Under the pieces are notes generated by a model. That model saw only the letters and a list, made by a program, of their open reading frames with translations, was not told where the DNA came from and did no database searches. DNA of 64,000 nt from a virus (taxonomy: Duplodnaviria > Caudoviricetes), in the IMG/VR virus record IMGVR_UViG_3300023283_000076, positions 128,001 through 192,000 of that record; one strand, written 5' to 3'. This document shows positions 1 through 3,309 of the stretch, piece by piece (the stretch's first letter is position 1; each line of letters starts with the position of its first letter). Made by a program: the position numbers and the translations under genes.

Positions 1-2019
1 TTCGAACAATCCAAATATAGTATCTGCCTTTTCTGGATGGACTAAAGTTCCATTACGAGCCTTAACATGCATCATGAAAAGATCATATAAGCTTACTTTA
101 TTATTGATAGAAAGCATTGCTTCAACCACATCACGTATTGATGCTGCGTTGCTATTAACATTGTTAGGTAGCTCGCCAAATGCATCTGCATGTGACATGT
201 CTGTCCATATAATTTCTCTTGTTTTAATATCAAAAATTACCGGCATGGCGCTTGTACTATCAAAATTTAAATCAAGCTTGCATTCGACAGTTTTAGGATC
301 GTAAACTTCATTACTGTCAGGTTTTGATCTGCTCATCCAACCAATGAAGCAAGTATCGTGTTCTGCAAAAGTATACCCGGAGAATACCATCACATTCATT
401 GCAACATATCTTATACCAGAGCTACGAGCATTTTCGATATCGATATCAACAAATTCACTAGCACCATGTGGCGCTCTGGTTATATCACCTGAATGATACA
501 GTCCAGACCTCGGCGATCTAATATTACCATACCAAATCTTGTCAACAACTTTAAAGTTTTTATCAAACAATGTTGCGCTCAAGTCAATATCTAGCCCTAC
601 CCAATACAAAAACAGGCGTATAGTGTTTGTTTCTTCATCCCCAAAAGGAAAACGAGTTCCTCTCGCTGCCGAATGTGTACCATCACTAGCGCTTCTTTGC
701 TGAGAAGGGATGGGGCATCTTTCTAATGCTGGATCAACATATACATTACCCAAGTTTTCCAGACTAGAAAATCTGTTGATTAGTGTCTTGGATATTCCAG
801 TTACAAGAGTATTAACTACTTTTTCGGGGAGAGCATCCTGTCCACTAATTAATTCAGCCCTTTGAATGTTCCCTTTAGGAAACACTACTCTCTTCGTGGT
901 ACTTTTGCTTCTAGTTGCAAAATGACCTTTCAACTGTAGAAGAACTTTGGTTGAAACACTATCAGCCACAGATATAAATTTGTTTGCAACAATTATCTGA
1001 TTCCTTTCGGCACCAGCCATCCTCAATAGATGATCCAATCTACGCGCAAAGTCGCCGGGACGGGTTACTAATAGCTTAGTAGCCTTAACCGGATGACCAG
1101 ACGCCAATTGCCGCTCAACTTTAGTGCTAAAAGTTTCCACACTTTCGTTTTCACGTAATGGTTTGATGGCATCATATACTTTCTTGGAGTAGTCTCCAAC
1201 ATGCAAAGAGTGCGCCAACTTAATCCACTTTCCACTATGTCTTACAAGATCTTCTCTATTGATGACAGATTCTAATCCTTTAACAAGGATTCGCCTTTCT
1301 GGTCTTTTGAAATTCTTGAATTTAGTGTTGTCTGCTAATGAAACATCACCACCGGACATATGTGTGGCAATACGCAACACATCGTTGGGGTTCTTAACCA
1401 GTTCATTGATTGGAATTCCATTTTCTACCATGTATGCACCAATAATACACAGATTTTCCTTGAACGGAATTGTTTCCGGAAATACGAGATTTCCGTAATG
1501 TTGCAAGAACCATTCAATGATTTCCTTATCTGTACTAGATACAGAATCGTTTGATGCCAATATCTTTGTAAATATTGATGCAAACTCGTCTTCTGTCGCA
1601 AGTCCCAGAGTTCTAAACTTCACATTTTCAAATGCGAATTCTCTAGGAAGTTTTTCATAATCAGGCTTCCAGTAACCGTAACTCCAATAATGCATGATAG
1701 CGTTCAAAAACAATTCCAAATCACTGGCTTCGATAACCTGACGAGGGAAATTCGGATACATTGGTTTATGAACTACATTATCGCCTTTCAACTCTTTCAA
1801 TGTTTTAACTAATACTGCTGAAAGGTCTCCTAGCATATGATCTGGAAGCTCTGAGATCACTTTTAAGAGATCTTCATCCATCATATAACCTAGGCCCATG
1901 ATATTGGCTTGAAGGGTCATGGCCTTTGCTGTAATCTGTCCCGTTGGACTCTCACTGCGCAGGTGCGCAGGTATAACTACTTTTTCTAGCTTTTTGATAG
2001 CTATTTCTGTCTTATTCAT
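1..2019 (-). CDS. TROVE-like/TerD fusion protein ('Rot'-type), C-terminus truncated by window edge
   Basis: Not in ORF track because no stop lies inside the window. ATG at 2019 with AGGAG RBS; frame open at every stretch I translated (up to 673 codons). Reads MNKTEIAIKKLEK...KPMYPNFPRQV...NAIMHYWS...IPFKEN...DVLRIATHMSGGDVSL...RPGDFARRLDHLLR, then a TerD-like region (LDIDLSA, HSGDITRAPHGASEFVDID, PVIFD, SLYDLFMMH). Confidence 0.8.
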   Translation of the reverse strand, partial: MNKTEIAIKKLEKVVIPAHLRSESPTGQITAKAMTLQANIMGLGYMMDEDLLKVISELPDHMLGDLSAVLVKTLKELKGDNVVHKPMYPNFPRQVIEASDLELFLNAIMHYWSYGYWKPDYEKLPREFAFENVKFRTLGLATEDEFASIFTKILASNDSVSSTDKEIIEWFLQHYGNLVFPETIPFKENLCIIGAYMVENGIPINELVKNPNDVLRIATHMSGGDVSLADNTKFKNFKRPERRILVKGLESVINREDLVRHSGKWIKLAHSLHVGDYSKKVYDAIKPLRENESVETFSTKVERQLASGHPVKATKLLVTRPGDFARRLDHLLRMAGAERNQIIVANKFISVADSVSTKVLLQLKGHFATRSKSTTKRVVFPKGNIQRAELISGQDALPEKVVNTLVTGISKTLINRFSSLENLGNVYVDPALERCPIPSQQRSASDGTHSAARGTRFPFGDEETNTIRLFLYWVGLDIDLSATLFDKNFKVVDKIWYGNIRSPRSGLYHSGDITRAPHGASEFVDIDIENARSSGIRYVAMNVMVFSGYTFAEHDTCFIGWMSRSKPDSNEVYDPKTVECKLDLNFDSTSAMPVIFDIKTREIIWTDMSHADAFGELPNNVNSNAASIRDVVEAMLSINNKVSLYDLFMMHVKARNGTLVHPEKADTIFGLFE

Positions 2020-2104
2020 CTTCGTTCTCCTGAAGTAAAGTGGAAGAACCATTTTCTTCCGTAGCCTCAAAGCACCGGCCCATCCGGTCTTTTAGAGTAA
2101 AATT

Positions 2105-2172
2105 GTCGGTAAGTTAAAGAGCTACGTTTTTTCCGAGAGTAAAAATTAGAAGGATGCTCTTTTATAGCCGAC
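2105..2172 (-). ncRNA. Y-RNA-like stem motif, copy A (5' leader of the Rot/TerD gene)
   Basis: GTCGG-CTATA-AAAGAGC-ATCCTTCTA...GCTCTTT-AACTTA-CCGAC; both stems covary with copies at 13630 and 13822; starts about 10 nt after a sigma70 -10 box. Confidence 0.75.
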
Positions 2173-2181
2173 TAGATGCGT

Positions 2182-2210
2182 ATACTAACACCATTGGTGA
2201 CTGATGTCAA
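2182..2210 (-). promoter_or_regulatory. sigma70-type promoter
   Basis: TTGACA-17-TAGTAT directly upstream of RNA motif copy A and the Rot/TerD gene. Confidence 0.75.
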
Positions 2211-2216
2211 CTCTTT

Positions 2217-2534
2217 TTAGAGTTTTTGTTCCATAATAATTTTATCATTATATAAATCATACCATATGTTGTTTTTTAATACTAGGCATATTTCTTCAGG
2301 ATGATATATAAATGTGGATTTCCATACATCATCCTTTTCTGTAAATTTATTAATTTCTTTAGCACATTGCGAGTTTTCTACTAATATTCTATCTTCATTA
2401 TTTTTCGTAATAGTATTCTTAACGGGTATGTTTTTATTATCAGTATTATTGTTGCTGCCCGCACTCTCGGCTATTAGATATAAGAAAATTATGAAAGTTA
2501 TTATTGTTATTATTAAACCGTCTTTTATATTCAT
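2217..2534 (-). CDS. hypothetical membrane-anchored protein
   Basis: 105 aa ORF with hydrophobic N-terminal helix. Confidence 0.6.
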   Translation of the reverse strand: MNIKDGLIITIITFIIFLYLIAESAGSNNNTDNKNIPVKNTITKNNEDRILVENSQCAKEINKFTEKDDVWKSTFIYHPEEICLVLKNNIWYDLYNDKIIMEQKL

Positions 2535-2571: not shown

Positions 2572-3309
2572 TTATGTCCATAATGCATGTCTTACTTTTA
2601 CTAATCTTACTAACATTCTATCATCTTCTTCTTCCCATTGTGTTTCTAATCTAGTCATTTCATCACAATATTTTTCGAATTCTACATACTCTTGTGTGTT
2701 TTTCCATTCTTCTGAAAACATAGAAAAAAATGATTCCCGTTCTGGCATTTCAGGACACTCTGGTTCTATTCTATTAGGGCGTATTTTGGTATACCATAGA
2801 TACAGTTTTAATATTTCTTCTGCATCTTTAGATTGTACTGGGCTTTCATCACCTAAGCTAATTTCCCAGCGAAGGTGCTCCAACCCAAATTCCTTATGCC
2901 TATTTTTATTAAAACGTAAAAAACGTGGTAGGAATCTTTTCCATTTTAAAAATTCTTTCTTTTTTTCTTTTGTGTCAAATACGCAATTCATATGTGCGCA
3001 TTCTTTCTCTACATAATCTACTAATAATGAAAAACATCCATGAAACATTAATTCTGGGGCATCATGATACCTGCGGGGTAAACCTGTTTTAATTATATTA
3101 GGTGCAGAAAAAAAATATTTTATTGAATTTAAAACATCATTCTTGAACCATTTAATACGATTTATGGCGGCAATATGGGGGCCGTTTTCTACTAAAAAGT
3201 ATCTTATGGGGGCATTTTCTTTGAATTCTTTACGAAACTTACCCCATCCCTCCATGGTTTCCGCTTCTGGAGGATAATAATTCATCCATCTATTAATTTT
3301 TTTAAGCAT
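2572..3309 (-). CDS. conserved phage hypothetical protein
   Basis: 245 aa; ends in LYLWYTKIRPNR...EEDDRMLVRLVKVRHALWT, a pattern I recall from large-phage hypotheticals; downstream of a sigma70 promoter. Confidence 0.7.
   Translation of the reverse strand: MLKKINRWMNYYPPEAETMEGWGKFRKEFKENAPIRYFLVENGPHIAAINRIKWFKNDVLNSIKYFFSAPNIIKTGLPRRYHDAPELMFHGCFSLLVDYVEKECAHMNCVFDTKEKKKEFLKWKRFLPRFLRFNKNRHKEFGLEHLRWEISLGDESPVQSKDAEEILKLYLWYTKIRPNRIEPECPEMPERESFFSMFSEEWKNTQEYVEFEKYCDEMTRLETQWEEEDDRMLVRLVKVRHALWT

What the first reader, a model, noticed from the sequence alone, without database searches (positions are those of the whole stretch)
2020..2210. Same stem forms the 5' leader of the Rot/TerD mRNA: possible autoregulation
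Seen: promoter TTGACA-17-TAGTAT, then motif copy A starting about 10 nt downstream, then two hairpins (ACCGG/CCGGT and GGAAGAA/TTCTTCC) just before AGGAG and the ATG. Inference: the protein may sense free Y-like RNA by binding its own leader, or the leader is processed off as a third small RNA.
Basis: inference. Interest (0 to 1): 0.7.

Follow-up and report, generated by a model that had tools for sequence, protein, structure and literature searches.

The report
Partner RNA built into mRNA leader
The untranslated start of this phage gene's message is a copy of the small folded RNA that always accompanies this protein family, followed by two conserved hairpins, so RNA and protein are probably made from one promoter; whether the protein also controls its own synthesis through this leader remains untested.

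Summary
A sigma-70-like promoter (TTGACA-17-TAGTAT, TG-extended) ends 9 nt before copy A (2173-2104). Copy A scores 69 bits (E 7e-16) against a model of the "handle" RNA family. Two hairpins, AGGAG and the ATG (2019) of a 690-aa helical+TerD protein follow.

In 160 non-redundant loci around homologues, handles lie on the gene's strand 309:13. They sit directly upstream in about 75% of loci, where the last one usually ends 15-30 nt before the start codon, or directly downstream in about 20%. A leader position is therefore the family norm, not a peculiarity.

Specific to this phage clade (14 leaders): both hairpins are kept with at least 8 different stem sequences. Hairpin 2 passes a terminator rule in 14/14, has a handle-like two-tier shape, and its outer helix overlaps the Shine-Dalgarno by 2 nt.

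Best reading: one promoter gives a ~140-nt handle RNA by leaky termination plus read-through mRNA. Autoregulation is plausible (about 25%) but cannot be a family-wide rule, because downstream-only loci have no handle in the leader. No RNA data exist.

This scan has already noted the same RNA/protein pair in at least 8 other genomes. I found no Rfam family or paper describing it.

The parts
2182..2210 (-). Sigma-70-like promoter: -35 TTGACA (2210-2205), 17-nt spacer with TG (2190-2189), -10 TAGTAT (2187-2182)
   Evidence: 10/12, TG-extended. An equivalent promoter with a 17-nt spacer, scoring at least 9/12, stands in 12 of 14 clade leaders. Family-wide, a promoter of at least 10/12 lies within 60 nt upstream of the first handle in 27/107 loci, against 2/506 random positions.
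2173..2177 (-). Predicted transcription start, 5-9 nt after the -10 hexamer, at or within 1-4 nt of the handle's first paired base
   Evidence: Inferred from the standard -10 to +1 spacing. In 9 of the 12 clade leaders with a promoter the -10 ends 5-9 nt before the handle. No RNA data.
2104..2173 (-). Handle RNA copy A: outer helix, CUAUA loop, 7-bp inner helix, AUCCUUCUA, 24-nt apical insert, AACUUA loop
   Evidence: Model R1 scores it 69.1 bits, E 6.7e-16. A compensatory change in the outer helix is seen in L092 (GUUGG/CCAAC). Family covariation on the seed alignment is; that seed was chosen for pairing.
2069..2094 (-). Hairpin 1: core ACCGG/CCGGU with loop AUGGG, extendable by AAAG/CUUU
   Evidence: Present in all 14 clade leaders with differing stems. 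RNAalifold finds compensatory pairs. Mean z is -3.35 against dinucleotide shuffles in 10 non-redundant leaders.
2030..2070 (-). Hairpin 2, a two-tier element: outer helix UUGAGG (2070-2065) / CUUCAG (2035-2030), inner stem GGAAGAA (2060-2054) / UUCUUCC (2048-2042), U-rich tail ACUUUACUU. It is terminator-like and has a handle-like skeleton.
   Evidence: Terminator-like by the scan and in 14/14 clade leaders, ending 22-26 nt before the ATG. The same two-tier fold appears in all 14, with G-C changed to A-U in the outer helix of L093 and L096. Weak local hit of R1, 12.4 bits, E 0.93; 14.8 bits in L091.
2027..2031 (-). Shine-Dalgarno AGGAG, 7 nt before the ATG; its first two bases belong to the outer helix of hairpin 2
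   Evidence: Read directly from the sequence. GGAG is invariant in the clade alignment.
1..2019 (-). Gene for the 690-aa helical + TerD-domain partner protein; the ATG is at 2019 and the last 17 codons and the stop lie 53 nt beyond the window's start
   Evidence: phrog_33734, unknown function. More than 1,600 homologues. TerD fold at residues about 460-635, Z 14.9. The longest matches of the N-terminal domain are two Ro60 proteins, Z 7.3-7.7, which is inconclusive.
13630..13704 (-). Handle RNA copy B, between tRNA-Met and tRNA-Trp
   Evidence: R1 scores it 60.7 bits, E 1.1e-13. tRNA positions.
13822..13983 (-). Handle RNA copy C with a large tRNA-like insert; its own promoter is TTGACA (14028-14023), 17 nt, TAAGAT (14005-14000)
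   Evidence: Pattern and pairing search of the whole genome. Sequence. R1 does not find it, because of the 130-nt insert.

Best explanation
Copy A is a genuine member of the 'handle' RNA family and sits where that family usually sits: at the very 5' end of the transcription unit of its partner gene. The leader is in effect an RNA gene fused to the mRNA. Shown: a conserved sigma-70-like promoter ends 9 nt before the handle. The handle, hairpin 1 and hairpin 2 are all conserved by structure in the phage clade. No other promoter-like site lies between them and the ATG. Inferred: transcription starts at about 2177-2173, so the handle's 5' end is made by initiation. Hairpin 2 with its U-rich tail stops part of the polymerases near 2036-2030, giving a free RNA of about 140 nt (handle + hairpin 1 + hairpin 2). 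The remainder reads through and is translated from AGGAG/ATG. One promoter would thus deliver RNA and protein together in a set ratio, and the protein can load onto a handle as it emerges. Feedback by the protein on this leader is possible on top of this, but it is not needed to explain the anatomy.
For: Copy A scores 69.1 bits, E 6.7e-16, with a model built from other loci. Handles lie on the gene's strand in 309 cases against 13 in 160 non-redundant loci, and 175 of 175 model hits are on that strand. Of 127 loci with both flanks, 83 carry handles upstream only, 12 on both sides, 13 downstream only. The proximal handle typically ends 15-30 nt before the ATG, and downstream arrays start a median of 10 nt after the stop, leaving no room for separate promoters. 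A strong promoter is enriched just before the first handle (27/107 against 2/506), mostly 5-12 nt from it. In the clade, 12/14 leaders keep TTGACA-17-TAnnnT. Hairpin 2 is terminator-like in 14/14, with at least 8 different stem sequences, always 22-26 nt before the ATG. Both hairpins are more stable than shuffles in all 10 non-redundant leaders, mean z -3.4 and -3.2. No sigma-70-like promoter lies between handle and ATG.
Against: There are no RNA data of any kind, so start, end and read-through are all inferred. In the window itself hairpin 2 is a weak terminator candidate: dG is -6.6 kcal/mol and its U count is the lowest among 199 terminator-like sites of this genome. Its U-rich tail could simply be the 3' internal-loop strand of a handle-like fold. 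Most other family members have no terminator between handle and gene, so release of the RNA there must work differently or not happen. Phage-specific promoters, which the scan cannot see, are not excluded.
Confidence: 0.6

Rival explanations
1. Translational autoregulation by mimicry. The protein binds a handle-type site in its own mRNA, either copy A or, more plausibly, the handle-like hairpin 2 that abuts the Shine-Dalgarno, and blocks the ribosome. Free handle RNAs B and C compete for the protein and relieve repression, so protein output follows the pool of unbound partner RNA. This is compatible with the best explanation as an added layer.
For: Hairpin 2 with its flanks is the only further hit of the handle model in the 64-kb window (12.4 bits, E 0.93). 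It lies exactly at the ribosome binding site, and its outer helix pairs the first two bases of AGGAG. The GGC-YAY start of the handle's internal loop is kept in 10 of 15 clade leaders. L095 keeps such an element with canonical CUAUA/AAAUUA loops and no U-tract, although no full handle was found there. Family-wide, the proximal full handle ends 5-13 nt before the Shine-Dalgarno, within the span a 30S subunit needs.
Against: Thirteen of 127 loci carry handles only downstream, and their leaders are short, ordinary and handle-free, so this cannot be a family-wide requirement. In this clade the full handle is 85 nt from the ATG. The handle model sees the mini element only in the window and its closest relative. 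Four clade members lack the YAY loop. The element lacks AUCCUUCUA, the family's most conserved block. Tight spacing is also expected from compact genomes alone. Binding has not been shown for any member.
Confidence: 0.25
2. Separate small-RNA gene. Copy A plus the two hairpins is a self-contained sRNA gene that ends fully at hairpin 2, and the protein gene is transcribed from a phage-specific promoter not recognisable here. The motif would then not be part of the mRNA leader at all.
For: Promoter, 5' handle and terminator-like 3' hairpin together look like a complete sRNA gene. In most clade relatives the U-tract is canonical.
Against: Only 22-26 nt, filled by the U-tract and the Shine-Dalgarno, separate hairpin 2 from the ATG in all 14 leaders, so a promoter would have to overlap the hairpins. 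No promoter-like site is found there. In most of the family handles abut the start codon with no terminator. The window's own hairpin 2 is weak.
Confidence: 0.1
3. A structured leader that only stabilises the mRNA (a 5' helix protecting against 5'-end-dependent decay), or a decaying duplicate of B/C without a role of its own.
For: A stable helix at the 5' end is a known mRNA stabiliser (general knowledge). Each element on its own is only modestly stable (z about -2).
Against: Copy A is the best-scoring handle in the genome (69 bits against 61 for B). It keeps every conserved block, shows a compensatory change in a close relative, and occupies the family's standard position. These are not the marks of a decaying copy.
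Confidence: 0.05

Closest known systems
Bacterial and phage Ro60 (Rsr) with Y RNAs YrlA/YrlB (Rfam RF02553; Chen et al. 2014, PMC4201824)
   Same: Small structured RNAs, some carrying a tRNA-like module on a conserved stem, are encoded next to the gene of a large RNA-binding protein and on the same strand; Chen et al. report this within 4 kb and on the same DNA strand. RNA-repair or tRNA genes are often nearby (RNA ligase, Thg1, RNase T-like and AlkB-like genes). The longest structural matches of the protein's N-terminal domain are two Ro60s.
   Different: No RF02553 hit even at E up to 10. The GNCGAA motif is absent. No TROVE or vWA domain is detected by Pfam. The C-terminal domain is TerD, not vWA. 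Here the RNA is placed at the transcript's 5' end, directly in front of the start codon.
Autoregulatory mRNA leaders that mimic the protein's main RNA target (ribosomal-protein leaders such as S15, L1 and L20; the E. coli thrS operator with tRNA-like arms; T4 RegA and gp32). Cited from general knowledge.
   Same: A copy or mimic of the RNA that the protein normally binds lies in the leader of the protein's own mRNA, close to the ribosome binding site.
   Different: In those systems the main target is encoded elsewhere and the leader element is only a mimic. Here the leader element is a full family member, probably itself a product. Binding and repression are untested, and some family members have no leader element at all.
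Small RNA genes followed by a leaky intrinsic terminator, with read-through into a downstream gene (general bacterial and phage gene organisation)
   Same: Promoter, structured RNA, then a stem-loop with a U-rich tail 22-26 nt before the next start codon.
   Different: RNA and downstream protein appear to be partners of one particle. The terminator-like hairpin also has the two-tier shape of the handle.

Membership tests
Handle RNA family (uncatalogued; session model R1) | Outer helix ending in GG/CC, 5' loop CYAUR, 7-bp inner helix, (A/U)U(C/A)CUUCUA block, 6-nt 3' loop | tested here: met
   Copy A scores 69.1 bits, E 6.7e-16, over the full model length. All blocks can be read directly.
Handle RNA family (uncatalogued; session model R1) | Encoded beside, and on the same strand as, a helical+TerD protein gene of about 690 aa | tested here: met
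   Copy A ends 85 nt upstream of the ATG on the same strand. Family-wide, 309 handles lie on the gene's strand against 13 on the other, and 175/175 model hits are on the gene's strand.
Y RNA / YrlA (Rfam RF02553) | Match to the Rfam covariance model | tested here: not met
   No hit at the gathering score in the window, and none at E up to 10 in 1950-2260.
Y RNA / YrlA (Rfam RF02553) | GNCGAAN0-1G motif near the 5' end (Chen et al. 2014, PMC4201824) | tested here: not met
   The motif is absent from 2173-2104, read directly. Motif definition.
Ro60 / TROVE protein (as partner) | TROVE HEAT-repeat ring plus vWA domain | tested here: inconclusive
   Pfam finds no TROVE or vWA. By fold, Ro60 of phage phiLo gives Z 7.7 (234 residues aligned, rmsd 4.6) and D. 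radiodurans Rsr gives Z 7.3 (233 residues, rmsd 4.9). These are the only long matches, but they do not stand above generic helical repeats. The C-terminal domain is TerD, Z 14.9.
Intrinsic (Rho-independent) terminator | G+C-containing stem, loop of 3-8 nt, U-rich tract directly after the stem | tested here: met
   The scan calls 2060-2042 plus its tail terminator-like. The same rule is met in 14/14 clade leaders. In the window it is weak: dG -6.6 and 5 U in 10 nt.
Intrinsic (Rho-independent) terminator | Transcripts end there | not testable with these tools
   No RNA run holds the stretch.
Autoregulatory operator by target mimicry | The leader element resembles the protein's cognate RNA | tested here: met
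   Copy A is a full family member. Hairpin 2 resembles the handle skeleton only weakly (12.4 bits, E 0.93).
Autoregulatory operator by target mimicry | The element overlaps or abuts the ribosome binding site | tested here: inconclusive
   Copy A lies 85 nt from the ATG, so it does not meet this. The outer helix of hairpin 2 overlaps AGGAG by 2 nt, so it does. Elsewhere in the family full handles end 5-13 nt before the Shine-Dalgarno.
Autoregulatory operator by target mimicry | The protein binds the leader and lowers its own translation | not testable with these tools
   Needs binding, toeprint and reporter assays.
Protein-controlled transcription attenuator (terminator versus antiterminator) | A conserved alternative pairing that excludes the terminator stem | tested here: not met
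   No conserved complement to the 5' arm of hairpin 2 lies upstream. AUCCUUCUA is not complementary in register, and the arms vary (sequences). The only overlap is 2-3 nt between the base of hairpin 1 and the outer helix.

The most novel reading that the evidence does not exclude
The helical+TerD protein keeps itself in balance with its RNA partners. It binds a handle-type operator at its own ribosome binding site, the handle-like hairpin 2 here and full handles in most other members. The free handle RNAs, including the tRNA-mimic C, titrate it away. The leader would then be product, assembly site and sensor at once, in an undescribed Ro-like particle that is widespread in large phages and many bacterial phyla.
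Probability: 0.22. Interest if true: 0.75.

Novelty: new variant of a known kind. Interest (0 to 1): 0.55.

Why it matters
I found this RNA family and its partner protein in no catalogue or paper searched, yet they occur in more than 1,600 protein homologues across phages and bacteria. Knowing how the pair is expressed is the first step towards studying it.

This analysis gives three things. First, a general rule: handles are co-transcribed with the gene, usually as its 5' leader, and transcription often starts at the handle's first base. Second, a clade-specific design with two structure-conserved hairpins, one of them terminator-like and touching the ribosome binding site. Third, a short list of cultured phages in which this can be tested.

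If feedback exists, it would be a new example of a ribonucleoprotein that measures its own RNA supply. If it does not, the locus is still a clean case of an RNA gene and its protein partner sharing one promoter.

Tried and rejected
- RNA evidence: no RNA holder is listed for window 1500-2400.
- Rfam: no family at the gathering score. At E up to 10 only chance-level hits appear in 1950-2260.
- Nucleotide search against phage records and a single-protein scan of viral contigs found nothing.
- Sequence search of solved structures found nothing below E 0.3.
- Papers: searches for TerD/Y RNA/Ro60/phage, TROVE/TerD/RNA repair and the conserved 9-mer gave no description of this RNA or pairing. Iyer et al. 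2021 (PMC7824862) mention ROT/TROVE proteins in some jumbo phages, but not this RNA.
- Leader peptide: the AUG in the loop of hairpin 1 opens 23 codons in the window. In L178 it is closed after 5 codons, and in L092 it is in frame with the gene, where a gene caller mistook it for the start. Rejected.
- Antiterminator pairing between AUCCUUCUA and the 5' arm of hairpin 2: not complementary in register and not conserved. Rejected.
- Internal promoter between handle and ATG: none by the sigma-70 scan.
- 'Leader more conserved than coding sequence': inconclusive. The nearest relative is 98% identical over the first 600 coding bases.
- Formal pair counting on hairpin 2: the MAFFT alignment A6 is out of structural register and one call was wasted. 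Per-sequence folds and shuffles were used instead.
- Handle-like short hairpins next to the ATG elsewhere in the family: found only in this clade.
- Further handle copies in the genome: relaxed matches outside A, B and C are imperfect. The one inspected lacks the handle's conserved CYAUR loop and was set aside as a false match.

Full report
**What is there.** The finding lies on the minus strand.
- A 690-aa gene starts at ATG 2019 and runs 53 nt past the window's start.
- Promoter: TTGACA (2210-2205), a 17-nt spacer carrying TG, and TAGTAT (2187-2182). The scan rates it 10/12 and TG-extended.
- Motif copy A starts 9 nt after the -10 hexamer. It consists of outer helix GUCGG/CCGAC, 5' loop CUAUA, a 7-bp inner helix, AUCCUUCUA, a 24-nt apical insert and 3' loop AACUUA (2173-2104).
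- Hairpin 1 follows, with core ACCGG/CCGGU (2088-2074).
- Hairpin 2 is GGAAGAA/UUCUUCC (2060-2042).
- AGGAG lies at 2031-2027.
- New detail: hairpin 2 is enclosed by an outer helix, UUGAGG 2070-2065 with CUUCAG 2035-2030, which overlaps the first two bases of the Shine-Dalgarno.
- Thermodynamic stability alone is unremarkable. The z-score is -1.1 to -1.6 for the whole leader and about -2 for each element.

**Copy A is a real member of a large RNA family.**
- The genome holds three perfect copies, all on the minus strand: A, B (13630-13704) and C (13822-13983, with a long tRNA-like insert).
- The protein has more than 1,600 homologues of about 680-700 aa in phages and in bacteria of several phyla.
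- I fetched 182 loci around homologues.
- A pattern-plus-pairing search found 319 handles on the gene's strand and 7 on the other. With a relaxed pattern, 160 non-redundant loci gave 309 against 13.
- A covariance model (R1) was built from 49 short handles, with both helices varying freely in sequence. That seed was chosen for pairing, so the strand asymmetry is the independent control.
- R1 hits copy A at 69.1 bits (E 6.7e-16) and B at 60.7 bits.
- In 79 loci, all 175 hits at E up to 0.01 lie on the gene's strand.
- Rfam holds no matching family, and no paper found describes it.
- This scan had already noted the same RNA/protein pair in at least eight other genomes and on this genome. The pair itself is therefore not new to the scan.

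**A leader position is the family's norm.**
- Of 127 non-redundant loci with at least 400 nt on both flanks, 83 have handles only upstream, 12 on both sides, 13 only downstream and 19 none by the pattern. The covariance model finds some that the pattern misses.
- Arrays hold one to six copies.
- The proximal upstream handle usually ends 15-30 nt before the start codon. A second cluster at 74-111 nt consists of this clade plus loci where a degenerate handle fills the gap.
- A Shine-Dalgarno-like motif starts 5-13 nt after the handle in most cases.
- Downstream arrays begin a median of 10 nt after the stop codon.
- There is no room for separate promoters or terminators, so RNA and gene must share a transcript.
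- A strong sigma-70-like promoter lies within 60 nt upstream of the first handle in 27 of 107 loci, against 2 of 506 random positions. In 18 of the 27 its -10 hexamer ends 5-12 nt before the handle. Transcription therefore often starts at the handle's first bases.

**What is special in this phage clade.** Fourteen leaders were compared. Their proteins are 54-90% identical to the window's.
- All share one order: promoter, full handle, linker, hairpin 1, a conserved UUUGAGGC, hairpin 2, a U-rich tail, AAGGAG, ATG.
- Twelve of 14 keep TTGACA-17-TAnnnT at 9/12 or better. In nine of them the -10 ends 5-9 nt before the handle.
- The outer helix of copy A shows a compensatory change in L092 (GUUGG/CCAAC).
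- Hairpin 1 exists in all 14 with differing stems, and RNAalifold finds compensatory pairs.
- Hairpin 2 exists in all 14 with at least eight different, perfectly paired stems. It is enclosed by the outer helix UUGAGG/CUUCAA, which becomes UUAAGG/CUUUAA in L093 and L096, a G-C to A-U exchange.
- Both hairpins beat dinucleotide shuffles in all ten non-redundant leaders, with mean z of -3.35 and -3.19. The window's versions are the weakest.

**Two readings of hairpin 2.**
- Terminator reading: it meets the scan's terminator rule in the window and in 14 of 14 leaders, always ending 22-26 nt before the ATG. Most relatives have a canonical run of U directly after a G+C-rich stem. In the window it is weak: dG is -6.6 kcal/mol and its U count is the lowest of 199 such sites in the genome.
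- Handle-skeleton reading: hairpin 2 with its flanks is the only other hit of the handle model in the 64-kb window (12.4 bits, E 0.93).
- That hit aligns as a handle without its apical part: outer helix ending in GG, loop CUAC, a 7-bp helix and loop ACUUUA.
- Support is limited. The model sees it only in the window and its nearest relative (14.8 bits in L091).
- The GGC-YAY signature is kept in 10 of 15 clade leaders. Among them is L095, which has canonical CUAUA/AAAUUA loops, no U-tract and no full handle. Such elements were not found next to the ATG outside this clade.

**Most likely mechanism (confidence 0.6).**
- One promoter drives a unit whose first product is the handle RNA.
- Initiation makes the RNA's 5' end.
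- Partial termination at hairpin 2 releases an RNA of about 140 nt, and read-through gives the mRNA.
- RNA and protein are thus made together, and the protein can load onto the nascent handle.
- Shown: the anatomy, its conservation, the absence of another sigma-70-like promoter, and the family-wide co-transcriptional layout.
- Inferred: the start site, termination, read-through and binding.

**Autoregulation (about 0.25, compatible as an added layer).**
- For: a handle-type element sits on the ribosome binding site here, and full handles sit 5-13 nt before it elsewhere.
- Against: loci with handles only downstream have short, ordinary leaders without any handle. The full handle here is 85 nt from the ATG, and the mini element lacks the family's most conserved block.
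- No conserved antiterminator pairing exists. Only 2-3 nt are shared between the base of hairpin 1 and the outer helix.

**The protein.**
- The C-terminal domain (about 460-635) has the TerD fold, Z 14.9. Pfam's TerD model scores below its cut-off.
- For the N-terminal helical domain folded alone (pLDDT 84), the only matches covering more than 230 residues are two Ro60 proteins. Phage phiLo gives Z 7.7 and D. radiodurans Z 7.3. Their Z values do not rise above generic helical repeats.
- 'Works like Ro60/Y RNA' is a fair analogy. Membership is not shown.

**Limits.** No RNA-seq run holds this stretch. All statements about transcripts are predictions.

**Experimental systems.** Cultured phages carrying the system (XacN1, Weasels2, RcXuper, LpeD) offer a direct way to test them.

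Noticed in passing
window 2144-2137, 2102-2095 and 13666-13659 (minus strand): The 8-mer UUUUACUC occurs three times in the handle RNAs: in the apical loop of copy A, in the linker just after copy A, and in the apical loop of copy B. The whole genome has 18 occurrences on both strands. Related UUUUACU/UUCACU strings sit in the apical loops of clade relatives. It might be a shared recognition or seed sequence.
   Followed up: partly
window 14028-14000 (minus strand): Copy C has its own promoter, TTGACA-17-TAAGAT, ending 16 nt before the handle. C, tRNA-Met, B and tRNA-Trp follow one another closely on the same strand, so B and C are probably released from a tRNA-type precursor, unlike A.
   Followed up: partly
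L092:3001-3069: The gene call of 709 aa in this relative starts at the AUG in the loop of hairpin 1, which happens to be in frame there. The family's N-terminus (MNKTEIAIKK) starts at 3067, so the database protein is 22 residues too long.
   Followed up: yes
L095:2855-3000: A relative with a protein 56% identical has no full handle within 8 kb by the model. It keeps a short handle-like hairpin (GGCUAUA, 5-bp stem, UAAAUUA) directly before its AGGAG, and an upstream GGCCAUA remnant.
   Followed up: partly
L084:2919-3000: In this Pirellulaceae genome contig a strong hairpin (11-bp stem) followed by UUUUU lies between the last handle and the start codon. This is an independent case of a terminator-like element between RNA and gene.
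   Followed up: no
L183, L185, L186, L184 (cultured phages XacN1, Weasels2, LpeD, RcXuper): Handles are present but unannotated in published phage genomes: three upstream of XacN1 ORF396, three downstream of Weasels2 gp266, one ending 19 nt before LpeD orf166, and one 416 nt upstream of RcXuper gp7.
   Followed up: partly
window 2226-2211 (minus strand): A small conserved hairpin (ACUCU AAAA AGAGU) ends directly against the -35 hexamer, just after the stop codon of the upstream gene. It is kept in L091 and L092. Its role is unknown.
   Followed up: no
L094, L097, L178, L180 flanks: Genes near the clade's handle/TerD unit include an RNA ligase, a Thg1-like enzyme, an RNase T-like exonuclease and a 2OG-Fe(II) oxygenase (AlkB-like). 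This fits a link to tRNA or RNA repair.
   Followed up: no
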